Made by a program: the position numbers and the translations under genes. Below are positions 23,967 to 50,352 of a stretch of 64,000 bases of DNA, piece after piece (the stretch's first letter is position 1; every line of letters begins with the position of its first letter). Location of the stretch: the NCBI GenBank assembly GCA_947454955.1, contig CANGLW010000007.1:28915-92914 (forward strand). Reading direction: 5' to 3'. Source of the stretch: Comamonadaceae bacterium (GTDB lineage Bacteria > Pseudomonadota > Gammaproteobacteria > Burkholderiales > Burkholderiaceae_C). The notes under the pieces were generated by a model. That model saw only the letters and a list, made by a program, of their open reading frames with translations, ran no database searches and had not been told where the DNA came from.

Positions 23967-26900
23967 ATGATCACGCCTGCCCAGCCCTTGTTGATTGAGT
24001 TCCCAGAATCCCTGCCAGTGTCGGGCAAACGCGACGAGATCATGGCGGCGATTGCGCAGCATCAGGTCGTCATCGTCTGCGGGGAGACCGGTTCGGGCAA
24101 GACCACGCAGCTGCCCAAAATCGCCCTGGCCATGGGGCGAGGGCGCATCAACGCTGCGCCCGGGCAGCGCGGCCAACTCATTGGCCATACCCAGCCGCGG
24201 CGCATTGCGGCCAGTTCGGTCGCCAAGCGCATTGCCGAAGAACTCAACACCCCGCTGGGCGAGGTGGTGGGTTACAAGGTGCGTTTTGCCGACCGCCTGA
24301 GCAAAGACGCCAGCGTCAAGCTCATGACCGACGGCATCTTGCTGGCCGAAACCCAGACCGACCCGCTCCTCAAGGCCTACGACACCATCATCATCGACGA
24401 GGCGCATGAGCGCAGCCTCAACATCGACTTTTTGCTGGGTTATCTGCGACAGATCTTGCCGCGCCGGCCTGACCTGAAAATCATCGTGACCTCGGCCACG
24501 ATCGATGCGGACAGGTTTGCCAAGCACTTTGCGTCTACAAAAGGTCCGGCGCCAATCATTCTTGTGTCGGGCCGTACCTTTCCGGTTGAACAACGCTACA
24601 AACCCTTTGAAGAATCGCGCGACTTCGATTTGAACGACGCCATTGCCGATGCGGTCGACGAGCTGTGGTCTGCTCCGCAAAACATGGGCGACATCTTGGT
24701 GTTTTTGCCGGGTGAGCGCGAAATTCGCGAAGCCGCTGATCATCTGCGCGCGCACCTGAGCCACAAGGCTTTGACGCGCCATGCCGAGGTGCTGCCTTTG
24801 TTTGCGCGCTTGAGCCAAGCCGAGCAAGACCGGATTTTCGATAGCCATACGGGCCGGCGCATCGTGTTGGCCACCAACGTGGCAGAAACGTCACTGACCG
24901 TGCCAGGCATCCGATACGTGATTGACTCAGGCACTGCCAGGGTCAAGCGCTACAGTTTCAGGAGTAAGGTGGAACAACTGTTGGTTGAGCCTGTTAGCCA
25001 AGCTGCAGCCAACCAACGCGCCGGGCGTTGCGGGCGCGTTGCCAATGGCATTTGCATCCGCCTTTACGACGAGAAAGATTTCGCCTCACGCCCGCGCTTC
25101 ACCGACCCTGAAATTCTGCGTTCATCGTTGGCTGGCGTGATTCTGCGCATGAAGGCCCTGCACCTGGGCGTGGTGGAAGACTTCCCGTTTTTAGAAGCGC
25201 CCAGCGGCCGCGCGATTGCCGATGGTTACCAACTCTTGGCGGAACTCGGTGCGGTGGACGAGGCCAACGAGCTCACCCCGATTGGCCGCGAACTCTCACG
25301 CGTGCCGCTGGACCCGCGGGTGGGGCGCATGATTTTGGAGGCGCGCAGCCGCCAGGCTCTGAGCGAGGTGTTGGTGATTGCCTCGGCGCTTAGCGTGCAA
25401 GACGTGCGCGACCGCCCCATGGACGCGCAAACCCAAGCTGACCAGGCGCACGCCAAGTTTGACGATGAAAAGAGCGAGTTTTCGGGCTACCTGCGTCTGT
25501 GGCAATGGCTGGAAGACAGCCGCGGCGGCAAAAATAATGGGGGTCAGACCCCAATTAATTCCCCAATTAATTCGACGCACAAGCTCTCGAACCGTCAGTA
25601 CGAGCAGCTGCTGCGGCAAAACTTCATCAGCATGCGCCGGGTGCGCGAATGGCGTGACATCTACACCCAACTGTTGACGGTGGTGGCCGAGCACAAGTGG
25701 CCCATCAACACCGCACCTGCGAGTTACGAGCAGATTCACCAGACCATGTTGGCTGGCCTGCTGGGTAACATCGGCTGCAAGGTGGAAGATGAATCCACCG
25801 AGTACCTGGGCGCGCGCGGCATCAAGTTTCACCGCCACCCGGGTGCGCATTTACGGAAAAAACCTGGGCGTTGGATCGTCTGCGCTGAGTTGGTGGAAAC
25901 CACGCGCTTGTTTGGCCGGGGTATCGCCAACATTGAGCCGCAGTGGGTCGAGAGTTTGGCTGGGCACTTGCTGAAAAAACAGCTGCTCGACCCGCATTGG
26001 GAGAAAAAGGCTGCTGAGGTGGTAGCCTTTGAACGCGCCACTTTGTATGGCTTGGTGATTTACAGCGGCCGGCGCACCAGCTTCGGACGGGTGGACCCGG
26101 TGGGTGCGCGTGAGATTTTCATCCGCGAAGCGCTGGTGGCTGGCGACTGGGACACAAAGCTGCCGTTTTTGGCCGCGAACCAAAAGCTCATCCGCCAGGT
26201 GCAAGACCTGGAACACAAATCACGCCGTCAAGACGTGCTGGTGGACGACGAGTTGATTTACGCGTTTTACGACCAGCAGATTCCGCAAGATGTGGTCAGT
26301 GGTGCCGGCTTGGAGCGTTGGTACAAGCTGAAAAACCAGCCCGACTTGCTGATGCTCACCCGCGAAGAATTGATGCGCCACGAGGCTGCGGGCATCACCA
26401 CCCAGTCCTTCCCCAAAACGCTCAGGCTCGGGGGCGTGGATTGTGCAGCCACTTACCTGCACGAGCCGGGCGATCCCAAAGACGGCCTGACTGTCACCGT
26501 GCCGCTGTTTGTGCTCAACCAAGTGAGTGAGGAGCGTTGCGAGTGGTTGGTGCCGGGCATGCTCAAAGACAAGATTCAGGCCCTGCTCAAAAGCCTGCCG
26601 CAACGCCCGCGCAGCCGTTTTGTGCCGCTGCCTGAATCTGCCGCGCGTTTGGCAGAAGTTCTGGGTGTGCCTGAGAAGTTTGGTGCGGGTGGTTTGACGG
26701 ATGCCTTGCTCAAACAAGTGCGCGACATCACCAGCCTGGACGTGAAGCGCGCCGACTTCAAGCTCGACATGCTCAGCCCCCATTTTTTCATGAACTTTCG
26801 GGTGGTGGACGAGCACGGCCGCCAGCTCGGCCATGGTCGCAACTTAGGTGCTTTGAAAGCTGAGTTGGGTGCGAAGGCGCGTGGCGCGTTTCAAGCGCTG

Positions 26901-27929
26901 GCTCAGCTTAAAAATCAATTGGGGTCTGACCCCAATTCTTCTGCTTCTGCTCCTTTGGTTGGCGAGGCACAGGACACACGCCGGGCTCCTCATGGCTCTC
27001 ACAAATCGTCACCCGGTGTGCATCCTGCGCCTACGGCGGACGGTTTAAAGACAAGCAAAAACACAACTTCTTCTGACGCCCGCTACACCACCTGGACCTT
27101 CGGCGAATTGCCAGAGCTGATGGAAATCCGCAAGGGTGGGCAGACGCTGATTGGCTTTCCAGCCCTTATCGACCAAGGTGATGCGGTGACCATCGAGGTG
27201 TTTGATGAGCCTGAGGTGGCTGCTAACAAGCACCGCGCGGGCTTGAAGCGTTTGTTTGCTTTGCAGATCAAGGACGCGCTCAAGTACCTCGAGAAGAACC
27301 TTCCCGAGCTGCAAAAAATGGCGGTGGCTTTTATGGCGCTGGGAACGCAAGATGAGCTCAAAGCGCAGATCATCGATGTGGCTTTGGACCGTGCGTTTTT
27401 ACCGCCAGGTGAGGCCATGCCTGCCAACGCACAAGAATTTCAAGCGCGATTGGATGGCGGGCGAGGGCGCTTGACCTTGATTGCCAATGAAGTGGCGCGT
27501 CTGTGCGCTGTCATCTTGACGGAATACGCGGTCGCGCTTCGCAAAATCAAAGACAGCCGGCATGCGCCTGAGGCGTGTGCAGACTGCACGCAGCAGTTGC
27601 AACGCCTCATGCCCAAGCGATTTGTGGCGCAAACGCCGTGGACGCAGTTGCAGCATTTTGCGCGCTACCTCAAGGCCATCACCTTGCGCTTGGACAAGTA
27701 CCGTGCCGACCCCGCGCGCGATACCACCCGCATGAAAGAACTGCTGCCGCAAGAGCAGCGTTACTGGCGCCTGGTGGCTGAACGCAAGGGCGTGATGGAC
27801 GACCGGCTGCAAGAGTTCCGGTGGTTGCTTGAAGAACTGCGGGTGAGCTTTTTTGCCCAAGAGTTACGCACGCCCCAACCGGTGAGCCTCAAACGCCTGG
27901 ACAAAGCGTGGGCGCAGATCAACACGTGA
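23967..27929 (+). CDS. hrpA: ATP-dependent RNA helicase HrpA (DEAH box)
   Basis: GETGSGKTTQLP, DEAHERS, SATID and QRAGRCGR motifs, plus a long C-terminal HrpA-specific region. 1320 aa. Confidence 0.95.
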   Translation: MITPAQPLLIEFPESLPVSGKRDEIMAAIAQHQVVIVCGETGSGKTTQLPKIALAMGRGRINAAPGQRGQLIGHTQPRRIAASSVAKRIAEELNTPLGEVVGYKVRFADRLSKDASVKLMTDGILLAETQTDPLLKAYDTIIIDEAHERSLNIDFLLGYLRQILPRRPDLKIIVTSATIDADRFAKHFASTKGPAPIILVSGRTFPVEQRYKPFEESRDFDLNDAIADAVDELWSAPQNMGDILVFLPGEREIREAADHLRAHLSHKALTRHAEVLPLFARLSQAEQDRIFDSHTGRRIVLATNVAETSLTVPGIRYVIDSGTARVKRYSFRSKVEQLLVEPVSQAAANQRAGRCGRVANGICIRLYDEKDFASRPRFTDPEILRSSLAGVILRMKALHLGVVEDFPFLEAPSGRAIADGYQLLAELGAVDEANELTPIGRELSRVPLDPRVGRMILEARSRQALSEVLVIASALSVQDVRDRPMDAQTQADQAHAKFDDEKSEFSGYLRLWQWLEDSRGGKNNGGQTPINSPINSTHKLSNRQYEQLLRQNFISMRRVREWRDIYTQLLTVVAEHKWPINTAPASYEQIHQTMLAGLLGNIGCKVEDESTEYLGARGIKFHRHPGAHLRKKPGRWIVCAELVETTRLFGRGIANIEPQWVESLAGHLLKKQLLDPHWEKKAAEVVAFERATLYGLVIYSGRRTSFGRVDPVGAREIFIREALVAGDWDTKLPFLAANQKLIRQVQDLEHKSRRQDVLVDDELIYAFYDQQIPQDVVSGAGLERWYKLKNQPDLLMLTREELMRHEAAGITTQSFPKTLRLGGVDCAATYLHEPGDPKDGLTVTVPLFVLNQVSEERCEWLVPGMLKDKIQALLKSLPQRPRSRFVPLPESAARLAEVLGVPEKFGAGGLTDALLKQVRDITSLDVKRADFKLDMLSPHFFMNFRVVDEHGRQLGHGRNLGALKAELGAKARGAFQALAQLKNQLGSDPNSSASAPLVGEAQDTRRAPHGSHKSSPGVHPAPTADGLKTSKNTTSSDARYTTWTFGELPELMEIRKGGQTLIGFPALIDQGDAVTIEVFDEPEVAANKHRAGLKRLFALQIKDALKYLEKNLPELQKMAVAFMALGTQDELKAQIIDVALDRAFLPPGEAMPANAQEFQARLDGGRGRLTLIANEVARLCAVILTEYAVALRKIKDSRHAPEACADCTQQLQRLMPKRFVAQTPWTQLQHFARYLKAITLRLDKYRADPARDTTRMKELLPQEQRYWRLVAERKGVMDDRLQEFRWLLEELRVSFFAQELRTPQPVSLKRLDKAWAQINT
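25533..25572. repeat. palindromic REP-like element copy (degenerate) plus 12-bp tandem duplication, in frame in hrpA
   Basis: GGGGTCAGACCCC core at 25540-25552 with partly complementary AT-rich flanks. CCCCAATTAATT is duplicated (25549-25560 and 25561-25572), giving PINSPINS. Confidence 0.8.
26917..26937. repeat. perfect 21-nt palindromic REP-like element, in frame in hrpA
   Basis: AATTGGGGTCTGACCCCAATT has 10-nt arms and a 1-nt centre. It is translated as NQLGSDPN. Confidence 0.9.
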
Positions 27930-50331: not shown

Positions 50332-50352
50332 AATTGGGGTCAGACCCCAATT
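50332..50352. repeat. perfect 21-nt palindromic REP-like element, intergenic
   Basis: AATTGGGGTCAGACCCCAATT lies 3 nt after the Spy-like stop and upstream of the decarboxylase gene. Confidence 0.9.

What the first reader, a model, noticed from the sequence alone, without database searches (positions are those of the whole stretch)
25533..25572. REP-like palindrome copy plus 12-bp tandem duplication inserted in frame in hrpA (GGKNNGGQTPINSPINS)
A GGGGTCAGACCCC core with AT-rich, partly complementary flanks sits inside the hrpA reading frame. It belongs to the same family as the perfect copies at 26917 and 50332. It is followed by an exact tandem duplication of CCCCAATTAATT.

Compared with the E. 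coli HrpA sequence as I remember it (...LGEQQKALSSNAFRRLC...YLRVREWQDIY), this region carries roughly 13-15 extra residues exactly where the element lies. That suggests an in-frame insertion tolerated in a surface linker.

This parallels the in-frame Rickettsia palindromic elements, which is unusual for REP-type repeats.
Basis: partly seen in the sequence, partly recalled or inferred. Interest (0 to 1): 0.6.

Follow-up and report, generated by a model that had tools for sequence, protein, structure and literature searches.

The report
In-frame REP palindrome inside hrpA
A 21-base palindrome that belongs to the small repeat family of this bacterium's own domesticated transposase sits in frame in a floppy loop of the RNA helicase HrpA; this kind of thing has been described before, but these copies are unusually well preserved.

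Summary
Window 25536-25556 holds the palindrome AATGGGGGTCAGACCCCAATT. It is followed by an exact 12-bp tandem duplication (25549-25560 and 25561-25572). All of it lies in frame in hrpA (23967-27929).

It is a genuine REP-type repeat. The genome has 11 copies, and 10 of them are identical 21-mers. Two copies flank a single-copy, syntenic RAYT/TIRYT tyrosine-transposase gene. The core GGGGTCAG fits the published TIRYT repeat motif GGGGWSAS.

Three of the 11 copies are in frame in genes: two hrpA linkers and a nasA-like nitrate reductase.

- **Insertion:** Related Limnohabitans MAGs keep an empty site (RGGKNNEHK). Only the sister species G021 shares the insert, and it lacks the 12-bp duplication.
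- **Location:** The insert maps to a low-confidence coil between two helices. It falls exactly at an 18-residue gap against E. coli HrpA.

In-frame REPs are already published (Di Nocera 2013), including two in Opitutus terrae HrpA. This is therefore a new member of a known kind.

One point is unexplained. The copies are perfectly conserved at orthologous sites, for example hrpA linker 2 in five lineages, despite near-saturated synonymous divergence. That suggests nucleotide-level maintenance or repeated re-insertion.

The parts
23967..27929 (+). hrpA coding sequence (1320 aa, DEAH/RHA ATP-dependent RNA helicase HrpA), intact
   Evidence: ORF. Translation. Pfam DEAD, Helicase_C, HA2, OB_NTP_bind and DUF3418. 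E. coli HrpA structures match with E = 0.
25536..25556 (.). REP copy 1, AATGGGGGTCAGACCCCAATT. It has one mismatch to the family 21-mer. It lies in frame in HrpA linker 1 and reads N-G-G-Q-T-P-I.
   Evidence: The sister species G021 has the same copy with the same AATG variant.
25539..25577 (+). 39-nt block that is extra relative to the empty site. The empty site reads GGC AAA AAT AAC GAA CAC AAG (RGGKNNEHK) in Limnohabitans MAGs L236 and L252. One Glu codon is replaced, for a net gain of 12 aa.
   Evidence: empty versus filled site. (minimal RGGHGEHK linker in many species of the genus).
25549..25560 (+). Tandem duplication unit 1, CCCCAATTAATT (right arm of the REP plus its flank)
25561..25572 (+). 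Tandem duplication unit 2, CCCCAATTAATT. It adds P-I-N-S and is absent from sister species G021.
26917..26937 (.). REP copy 2, a perfect 21-mer with central T. It lies in frame in HrpA linker 2 and reads L-G-S-D-P-N. The same site and frame are occupied in G021, L090, L031 and L101.
50332..50352 (.). REP copy 3, a perfect 21-mer, intergenic, 3 nt after a TGA stop. G021 has a doublet at the orthologous site.

Best explanation
**What it is**
The palindrome is one copy of the short repeat (REP/TIR) family serviced by the genome's single, vertically inherited RAYT/TIRYT-type HUH-Y1 transposase. That gene lies outside the window at G000 C5:55698-56411. It is flanked on both sides by the same 21-mer.

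**How it got there (inferred)**
A copy became inserted after an A-rich AAAAATAA stretch in the linker between two helices of the HrpA ratchet/HA2 region. This happened in the common ancestor of G000 and G021. The likely route is the single-strand hairpin, 'peel and paste' chemistry of the IS200/IS605-RAYT family.

**Why the frame survived**
The 21-mer is exactly seven codons long. It is open in five of its six reading frames.

**Why the protein tolerates it**
The site is a disordered surface loop.

**The duplication (inferred)**
In the G000 lineage only, the right arm plus flank (CCCCAATTAATT) was later duplicated in tandem. Hairpin-promoted replication slippage is the probable cause. This added PINS.

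**Shown versus inferred**
Shown: family membership, the RAYT association, insertion polarity, the loop location, and the lineage-specific duplication. Inferred: the transposition chemistry and the slippage mechanism.
For: **Repeat family**
- G000 has 11 copies and 10 are identical 21-mers.
- The window holds 3 places, against 0.17 matches expected by chance.

**Association with the transposase**
- The layout is REP-RAYT-REP.
- The protein scores Pfam Y1_Tnp 40.7 bits against a cut-off of 23, and NCBIfam REP_Tyr_transpos 74.8 bits against a cut-off of 80.
- Its only PDB match is E. coli TnpA-REP 4ER8, with the HUH motif and the Y-I-x-x-N-P-V tyrosine aligned.
- The gene is single-copy and syntenic in 43 of 44 genomes of the genus.
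- Divergent RAYT homologues (30-65% identity) sit next to the same 21-mer in other phyla.
- GGGGTCAG fits the TIRYT motif GGGGWSAS of PMC3733652.

**Insertion polarity**
- Only G000 and G021 carry both the repeat family and the peptide.
- An empty site, RGGKNNEHK, exists in L236 and L252.
- The alignment to E. coli has an 18-residue gap at exactly this place.

**Loop location**
- In the AF2 model, fragment residues 170-185 (HrpA 522-537) have pLDDT below 50 and form coil between helices 152-166 and 190-199.

**Duplication**
- It is exact, and it is absent in G021.

**Other in-frame copies**
- nasA in G000.
- uvrA2-like, penicillin amidase and cobQ genes in other taxa.
Against: - No transposition is demonstrated. 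Ten of G000's 11 sites have an orthologous counterpart in G021. The C50 copy was not matched there. The family therefore looks static since that split.
- The REP lacks the GTAG head that defines classical RAYT-REPs.
- The NCBIfam score is just under its cut-off.
- In nasA the REP replaces about 9 residues for a net gain of only 1. That is not what a simple insertion predicts.
- The RNA fold of copy 1 in its context is not better than shuffles (z = -1.28).
- Perfect conservation of the copies argues against a purely passive passenger.
Confidence: 0.85

Rival explanations
1. The intragenic palindromes are cis-elements kept by selection on their nucleotide sequence, not passive passengers. They could serve as a binding or processing site for the domesticated transposase or another factor, acting on single-stranded DNA or on hrpA mRNA. 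hrpA and uvrA2 linkers would then be functional locations.
For: - The hrpA linker-2 copy is identical at 20 of 20 non-central positions in five lineages. Only 24.6% of four-fold sites in hrpA are invariant across the same five. The sole variable base is the loop centre.
- In genome G060 that copy is the only perfect 21-mer in the genome, and its RAYT flanks carry a different variant.
- G000 has no degenerate copies within 3 mismatches. Yet 27% of four-fold sites differ between G000 and G021, and ten of G000's 11 sites are orthologous.
- In uvrA2 the same site carries the REP in two different reading frames. The DNA is kept while the peptide is not.
- Variants differ by C/T changes that keep G:C or G:T pairing on one strand.
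Against: - No functional data exist.
- 18 of 20 sampled HrpA sequences from the genus (all except G000 and G021) lack the element and have intact hrpA.
- There is no Rfam family here.
- Hairpin stability is modest.
- Many unrelated palindromic repeats occupy the same linkers in other Comamonadaceae. That fits a permissive dump site.
Confidence: 0.25
2. The apparent conservation at one site comes from repeated re-insertion or homing. New REP copies would land in or next to old REP copies, or in the same A/T-rich target. The site would then stay occupied by a fresh perfect copy, leaving partial older arms beside it.
For: - Partial half-copies lie next to perfect copies. Examples are the 12-nt right arm in G000 linker 1, 15-nt and 27-nt left-arm repeats in L031 and L101, C29:9800 in G000, and half-sites beside the RAYT.
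- Doublets in G021 sit where G000 has singlets.
- Arrays of several copies occupy linker 1 of L218 and L224.
- All three in-frame G000 copies follow an AAAAAT-type stretch.
- AATTGGGG half-sites number 32-34, against 6-11 for control words.
Against: - No new site arose between G000 and G021, so activity is at best very low.
- In G060 there is no perfect donor copy elsewhere.
- The HrpA tree favours one gain and one loss over three gains.
Confidence: 0.2
3. The peptide is ancestral HrpA sequence and the palindrome is coincidental, or the feature is an assembly artefact.
For: Linker 1 is length-variable in the family, so some extra residues are native.
Against: - The same 21-mer flanks the RAYT and occurs 11 times in the genome.
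- Orthologues without the family lack the peptide.
- Two independent assemblies (G000, G021) agree at orthologous sites.
Confidence: 0.02

Closest known systems
TIRtrons / TIRYT-associated repeats with the GGGGWSAS motif (Di Nocera, De Gregorio, Rocco 2013, BMC Genomics 14:522, PMC3733652)
   Same: - A tyrosine (HUH-Y1) transposase gene is flanked by inverted repeats that begin GGGGTCAG, which fits GGGGWSAS.
- The repeats form a small genomic family, partly self-complementary, arranged as singles, dimers and clusters.
- The paper names Acidobacteria as carriers. The exact 21-mer was found here next to RAYT homologues in Acidobacteriota MAGs.
   Different: - The exact 21-mer is not quoted in the text or supplements that I could search.
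- The paper tabulates intragenic copies for GTAG and CGTC REPs, not for TIR repeats.
- Here 3 of 11 copies are intragenic.
Classical REP/REPIN-RAYT systems (E. coli, Pseudomonas; Nunvar 2010; Bertels and Rainey 2011; bioRxiv 10.1101/2021.07.10.451892)
   Same: - The RAYT is single-copy, vertically inherited and sits in a fixed extragenic location, flanked by its repeats.
- The repeats are short palindromes, mostly placed just after or before genes, and often occur as inverted doublets.
- Duplication rates are extremely low.
   Different: - There is no GTAG/GTGG head.
- The population is tiny (about 11 copies, and 1-8 of the variant form in other species of the genus) rather than hundreds.
- There is no mutational cloud.
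- The protein is 237 aa, longer than the 146-position NCBIfam model.
Intragenic in-frame REPs in DNA/RNA-metabolism genes, including Opitutus terrae HrpA Oter_0009 with two REPs (PMC3733652, Additional file 3)
   Same: - Two separate short REP-encoded 7-8-residue segments lie in one HrpA.
- UvrA genes are also hit at linkers. I saw the same in uvrA2-like genes of Limnohabitans, Rhodoferax and Ramlibacter.
   Different: - The REP families (GTAG-18/19) and the phylum differ.
- I could not fetch Oter_0009 to test whether residues 662-668 and 1241-1248 correspond to linkers 1 and 2 here.
Rickettsia palindromic elements (RPE; Ogata et al. 2000)
   Same: Palindromic repeats are inserted in frame in functional genes at surface-exposed sites.
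   Different: - By my recollection, RPEs are roughly 100-150 bp, encode tens of residues and have no known cognate transposase.
- This element is 21 nt (7 codons) and has a RAYT.

Membership tests
REP/TIR repeat of a RAYT/TIRYT (REPtron/TIRtron) | A short palindromic sequence repeated many times more than chance in one genome | tested here: met
   There are 11 copies in 2.78 Mb and 10 are identical 21-mers. The window holds 3 places, against 0.17 matches expected.
REP/TIR repeat of a RAYT/TIRYT (REPtron/TIRtron) | Copies flank, in inverted orientation, a single-copy HUH-Y1 transposase gene | tested here: met
   The gene lies at C5:55698-56411, with repeats at C5:55581 and C5:56465. It is single-copy and syntenic in 43 of 44 genomes.
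REP/TIR repeat of a RAYT/TIRYT (REPtron/TIRtron) | The transposase has an HUH motif, a catalytic tyrosine and RAYT-type signatures | tested here: met
   HFH and the Y-I-D-L-N-P-V tyrosine align to E. coli TnpA-REP 4ER8. Pfam Y1_Tnp is above its cut-off. NCBIfam REP_Tyr_transpos scores 74.8 against a cut-off of 80, just below.
Classical GTAG-REP | A GTAG (GTGG) tetranucleotide at the 5' side of the hairpin | tested here: not met
   The consensus TTAATTGGGGTCWGACCCCAATTAA has no GTAG or GTGG.
TIRYT repeats (PMC3733652) | The TIR shares the motif GGGGWSAS | tested here: met
   GGGGTCAG fits the motif, which is quoted.
REP/REPIN as a mobile element | Evidence of duplication to new sites | tested here: inconclusive
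   An empty versus filled site exists for hrpA linker 1. However, no site differs between G000 and G021 apart from singlet versus doublet state.
Repetitive EXTRAgenic palindrome | Location outside coding regions | tested here: not met
   For this copy the feature is not met. In G000, 3 of 11 copies are inside intact genes and 8 are within about 25 nt of gene ends or starts.
Rickettsia palindromic elements | A 100-150 bp element encoding a 30-50 aa insert, with no cognate transposase (size figures from my own recollection) | tested here: not met
   The element is 21 nt and has a RAYT.

The most novel reading that the evidence does not exclude
This 21-nt palindrome is actively kept identical at the nucleotide level, by selection or by transposase-dependent renewal. 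It is kept so at orthologous in-frame linker sites of nucleic-acid helicase and repair genes (hrpA, uvrA2) across genera, and the same sequence serves divergent RAYTs in several phyla. If true, a domesticated transposase-repeat pair has a host-level role that uses sites inside coding regions, and the encoded peptide is irrelevant.
Probability: 0.3. Interest if true: 0.65.

Novelty: new member of a known kind. Interest (0 to 1): 0.38.

Why it matters
The finding gives a clean, dated example of a protein gaining residues from a transposase-serviced palindrome. An empty site, a filled site and a filled site with a secondary duplication are all available. It also ties an in-frame REP to its own RAYT.

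Such inserts inflate and vary linker lengths in HrpA and UvrA-type proteins. They can mislead annotation and alignment.

The broader pattern is a tractable test case for whether REP-RAYT systems are maintained for a host function. That pattern has three parts:
- an identical 21-mer occurs across phyla;
- there is no mutational cloud;
- copies are conserved at orthologous intragenic sites.

Tried and rejected
- **Literature search by sequence:** searching for the 13-mer and 11-mer cores gave no relevant paper. The supplements of PMC3733652 do not contain GGGGTC or GACCCC.
- **Rfam:** an E-value-threshold scan of 25300-27200 found nothing.
- **RNA folding:** copy 1 in context is not better than shuffles (z = -1.28). 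Copies 2 and 3 are modestly better (z = -2.06 and -3.44). An mRNA-hairpin role is therefore unsupported for copy 1.
- **Tn3-end idea:** I considered that the palindrome was a collapsed pair of Tn3-type ends (GGGGTCTGAC...) or an excision footprint. I dropped this once the RAYT flanked by the same repeat was found.
- **Gene conversion among copies:** I considered this as the reason for identity. It is weakened because G060 has only one perfect copy.
- **First ORF-picking script:** it chose antisense frames in some loci. It was redone by k-mer match to HrpA.
- **Opitutus terrae HrpA:** I did not fetch it, so the correspondence of its two REP sites to linkers 1 and 2 is untested.
- **Not run:** no complex prediction and no read mapping were run, because they would not bear on the claim.

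Full report
**1. Observation**

One search shows GGGGTCAGACCCC at window 25540-25552. With its flanks it forms the 21-mer AATGGGGGTCAGACCCCAATT at 25536-25556. An exact tandem CCCCAATTAATT x2 follows at 25549-25560 and 25561-25572.

The region lies in a 1320-aa open frame, 23967-27929. The product has the DEAD, Helicase_C, HA2, OB_NTP_bind and DUF3418 domains of HrpA and matches E. coli HrpA structures at E = 0. The segment reads K522-NNGGQTPINSPINS-T537.

The 13-mer occurs at three places in the window, against 0.17 matches expected by chance. The second copy (26917-26937) is also inside hrpA. The third (50332-50352) starts 3 nt after a stop codon.

**2. A real and unusually uniform family**

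The genome (G000, 2.78 Mb, 59.6% GC) has 11 copies. Ten are the identical 21-mer AATTGGGGTCWGACCCCAATT. The copy under study is the only variant, with one mismatch. No further copies appear even when 3 mismatches are allowed.

Half-sites AATTGGGG and CCCCAATT are about three times commoner than control words.

In 44 genomes of the genus, the palindrome occurs only in G000 (10 matches) and G021 (11 matches). G021 is the sister species, with 94-95% HrpA identity.

**3. It is the repeat of a RAYT-type transposase**

Two copies (C5:55581 and C5:56465) bracket a 237-aa gene at C5:55698-56411. The evidence on that gene:
- Pfam Y1_Tnp scores 40.7 bits against a cut-off of 23.
- NCBIfam 'REP-associated tyrosine transposase' scores 74.8 bits, just under its cut-off of 80.
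- Its only PDB match is E. coli TnpA-REP 4ER8, with the HUH motif and the Y-I-x-x-N-P-V tyrosine aligned.
- It is single-copy and sits between the same neighbours in 43 of 44 genomes of the genus. This is the pattern described for domesticated RAYTs (bioRxiv 10.1101/2021.07.10.451892).

In the other species the flanking repeats are the imperfect forms GGGGTCAGATTCC or GGGGTCAGATCCC and their complements. These number 1-8 per genome. They differ from the perfect palindrome by C/T changes that keep G:C or G:T pairing on one strand only. That fits a single-strand hairpin substrate; this last point is inference.

GGGGTCAG fits the motif GGGGWSAS, which Di Nocera et al. 2013 reported for the inverted repeats of 'TIRYT' tyrosine transposases (PMC3733652). 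There is no GTAG head, so it is not a classical GTAG-REP.

**4. The hrpA copy is an insertion in a loop**

Within the genus, many species have the minimal linker RGGHGEHK. G021 has RGGHQNNGGQTPINATHK, which carries the same palindrome with the same AATG variant but no 12-bp duplication.

Two Limnohabitans MAGs (L236, L252) carry RGGKNNEHK, encoded as GGC AAA AAT AAC GAA CAC AAG. G000 reads GGC AAA AAT AAT, then 39 nt, then CAC AAG. This is an empty-site versus filled-site pair. It places the extra block at 25539-25577, for a net gain of 12 residues. Four of those residues come from the later duplication.

phmmer against E. coli HrpA (9ggr) leaves an 18-residue gap at exactly this place.

An AlphaFold2 model was built for HrpA residues 353-679 with a 22-sequence alignment (mean pLDDT 74). 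Fragment residues 170-185 (HrpA 522-537) have pLDDT below 50 and form coil between helices at 152-166 and 190-199.

**5. The tandem duplication**

The duplication is exact and specific to G000. The genome has 22 exact tandem duplications of 12 nt or more, mostly of 12 or 15 nt. The event type is therefore ordinary.

Partial arm duplications next to this REP recur, however:
- a 15-nt left-arm repeat in L031 and a 27-nt one in L101;
- a partial left arm at C29:9800;
- half-sites beside the RAYT.

Hairpin-promoted slippage, or insertion of a new copy into an old one, would both explain this. Neither is shown.

**6. Other in-frame copies**

In G000 a third in-frame copy lies in a 928-aa molybdopterin nitrate reductase (NasA-like), read as NWGQTPI. 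G021 shares it. Three other species have an unrelated 8-9-residue segment there, so the net change is only one residue. This looks like replacement rather than simple insertion and is unexplained.

The 21-mer is seven codons long and is open in five of six frames (read directly from the sequence).

The exact 21-mer was found in more than 116 contigs of the species-representative genome collection. These include Comamonadaceae, Acidobacteriota, an alphaproteobacterial MAG, Desulfurivibrio, Bacteroidales, Phycisphaerales and others. Nine of those stretches have a RAYT homologue (30-65% identity) beside it.

Of 139 copies, 33 lie in long open frames. Seven of eight frames tested by Pfam are real proteins:
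- four giant double-UvrA proteins;
- a penicillin amidase with a doublet;
- CobQ/CobD;
- an oxidoreductase pair.

**7. Conservation that a passive passenger does not predict**

The linker-2 copy occupies the same site and frame (LGSDPN) in G000, G021, L090, L031 and L101. On an HrpA tree these form the three deepest branches around a clade of 18 sequences that lack it. One gain and one loss is therefore the most parsimonious history.

Across these five sequences only 24.6% of 374 four-fold sites are invariant. Yet 20 of 20 non-central positions of the palindrome are invariant. The only variable base is the loop centre.

In the genome of L090 this is the only perfect copy, and its RAYT flanks carry GATCCC.

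Ten of G000's 11 REP sites have an orthologous counterpart in G021. The C50:2290 copy was not matched there. Flanks are 78-91% identical and the 21-mers are perfect. G021 has doublets where G000 has singlets at three sites.

In the double-UvrA proteins, one inter-module site carries the REP as LGSDPN in L114 but as NWGQTPI in L138 and L084. The DNA is kept while the peptide is not.

These facts point to nucleotide-level selection or to renewal by re-insertion. I cannot separate the two.

**8. hrpA linkers as recurrent hosts**

Across 80 Comamonadaceae hrpA loci, linker 1 ranges from 16 to 84 residues. It holds arrays of this REP (L218, L224), doublets (L090, L251) and at least three other palindromic repeat types.

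Within the genus, an unrelated element of about 75 nt, GC-rich and encoding GRPK..SGGSDDAQRGAWG, sits in frame at about residue 193 or about residue 580 in different species.

**9. Comparison with the literature**

Di Nocera et al. [quoted passage not shown] Their list includes two in Opitutus terrae HrpA (Oter_0009, residues 662-668 and 1241-1248) and dual inserts in both of its uvrA genes.

**10. Verdict**

It is strengthened by the RAYT link, the empty site and the loop model.

The phenomenon is published, so this is a new member of a known kind. The specific 21-mer family and its near-absolute sequence uniformity are, as far as I could search, undescribed. So is its conservation at orthologous intragenic sites. 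These are the part worth following.

The organism is a Comamonadaceae, probably Limnohabitans-like. This is inferred from the titles of the nearest loci.

Noticed in passing
G000 C1:112301-112321 (L147:2802-2822), outside the window: The same 21-mer lies in frame (NWGQTPI) inside a 928-aa NasA-like nitrate reductase. Compared with three congeners it replaces an 8-9-residue segment, for a net gain of only one residue. G021 shares it.
   Followed up: yes
G000 C5:55581-56485 (L150:2082-2986), outside the window: A single-copy 237-aa RAYT/TIRYT gene is bracketed by two perfect 21-mers. An extra half-site and a small hairpin lie on one side. The locus is syntenic across the genus, but most other species carry the imperfect repeat GGGGTCAGATTCC.
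   Followed up: yes
Genome-contig loci L031-L146: The exact 21-mer occurs in more than 116 contigs from many phyla (Acidobacteriota, Bacteroidales, Phycisphaerales, Desulfurivibrio, Alphaproteobacteria and others). It often occurs in doublets 25-49 nt apart. In nine cases it lies next to a RAYT homologue only 30-65% identical.
   Followed up: partly
L064, L046 (site after IEAIEVALKRG..VYA); L114, L138, L084 (site before SIQIINA): Giant double-UvrA proteins of Limnohabitans, Ramlibacter and Rhodoferax carry the REP in frame at two orthologous linker sites. At one site it is read in different frames in different genera.
   Followed up: partly
L082:3455-6034: A REP doublet (NWGQTPISAKLGSDPN) lies in frame at about residues 292-301 of a penicillin amidase. 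By position it may be in the spacer region between the two subunits. This was not checked.
   Followed up: no
L013 (G021 hrpA, about residue 193); L017-L019 and L031 at the same site; L026 and L027 at about residue 580: An unrelated GC-rich repeat of about 75 nt, encoding GRPK..PSGGSDDAQRGAWG, sits in frame at two different HrpA sites in different species. Weak matches exist in G000 at C3:30554 and C8:7509.
   Followed up: partly
L011 and L016 linker 1; L218 and L224 linker 1: A longer hairpin (about 55-68 nt) has the same GGGGTC...GACCCC termini (GGGGTCGGATCCCGATT...GGGCTCTGACCCC) and occupies the same hrpA linker. The 21-mer looks like a collapsed form of such a doublet.
   Followed up: no
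L009, L027, L011 linker 2; L182, L233, L245 linker 1: A different REP class, translated as (T)VRPELVEG...SARTE, is also found in frame in the two HrpA linkers.
   Followed up: no
window 26938-27110: HrpA linker 2 is about 62 residues here, against about 10 in E. coli. It is low-complexity (S/P/A/T-rich) and differs almost completely even from G021.
   Followed up: partly
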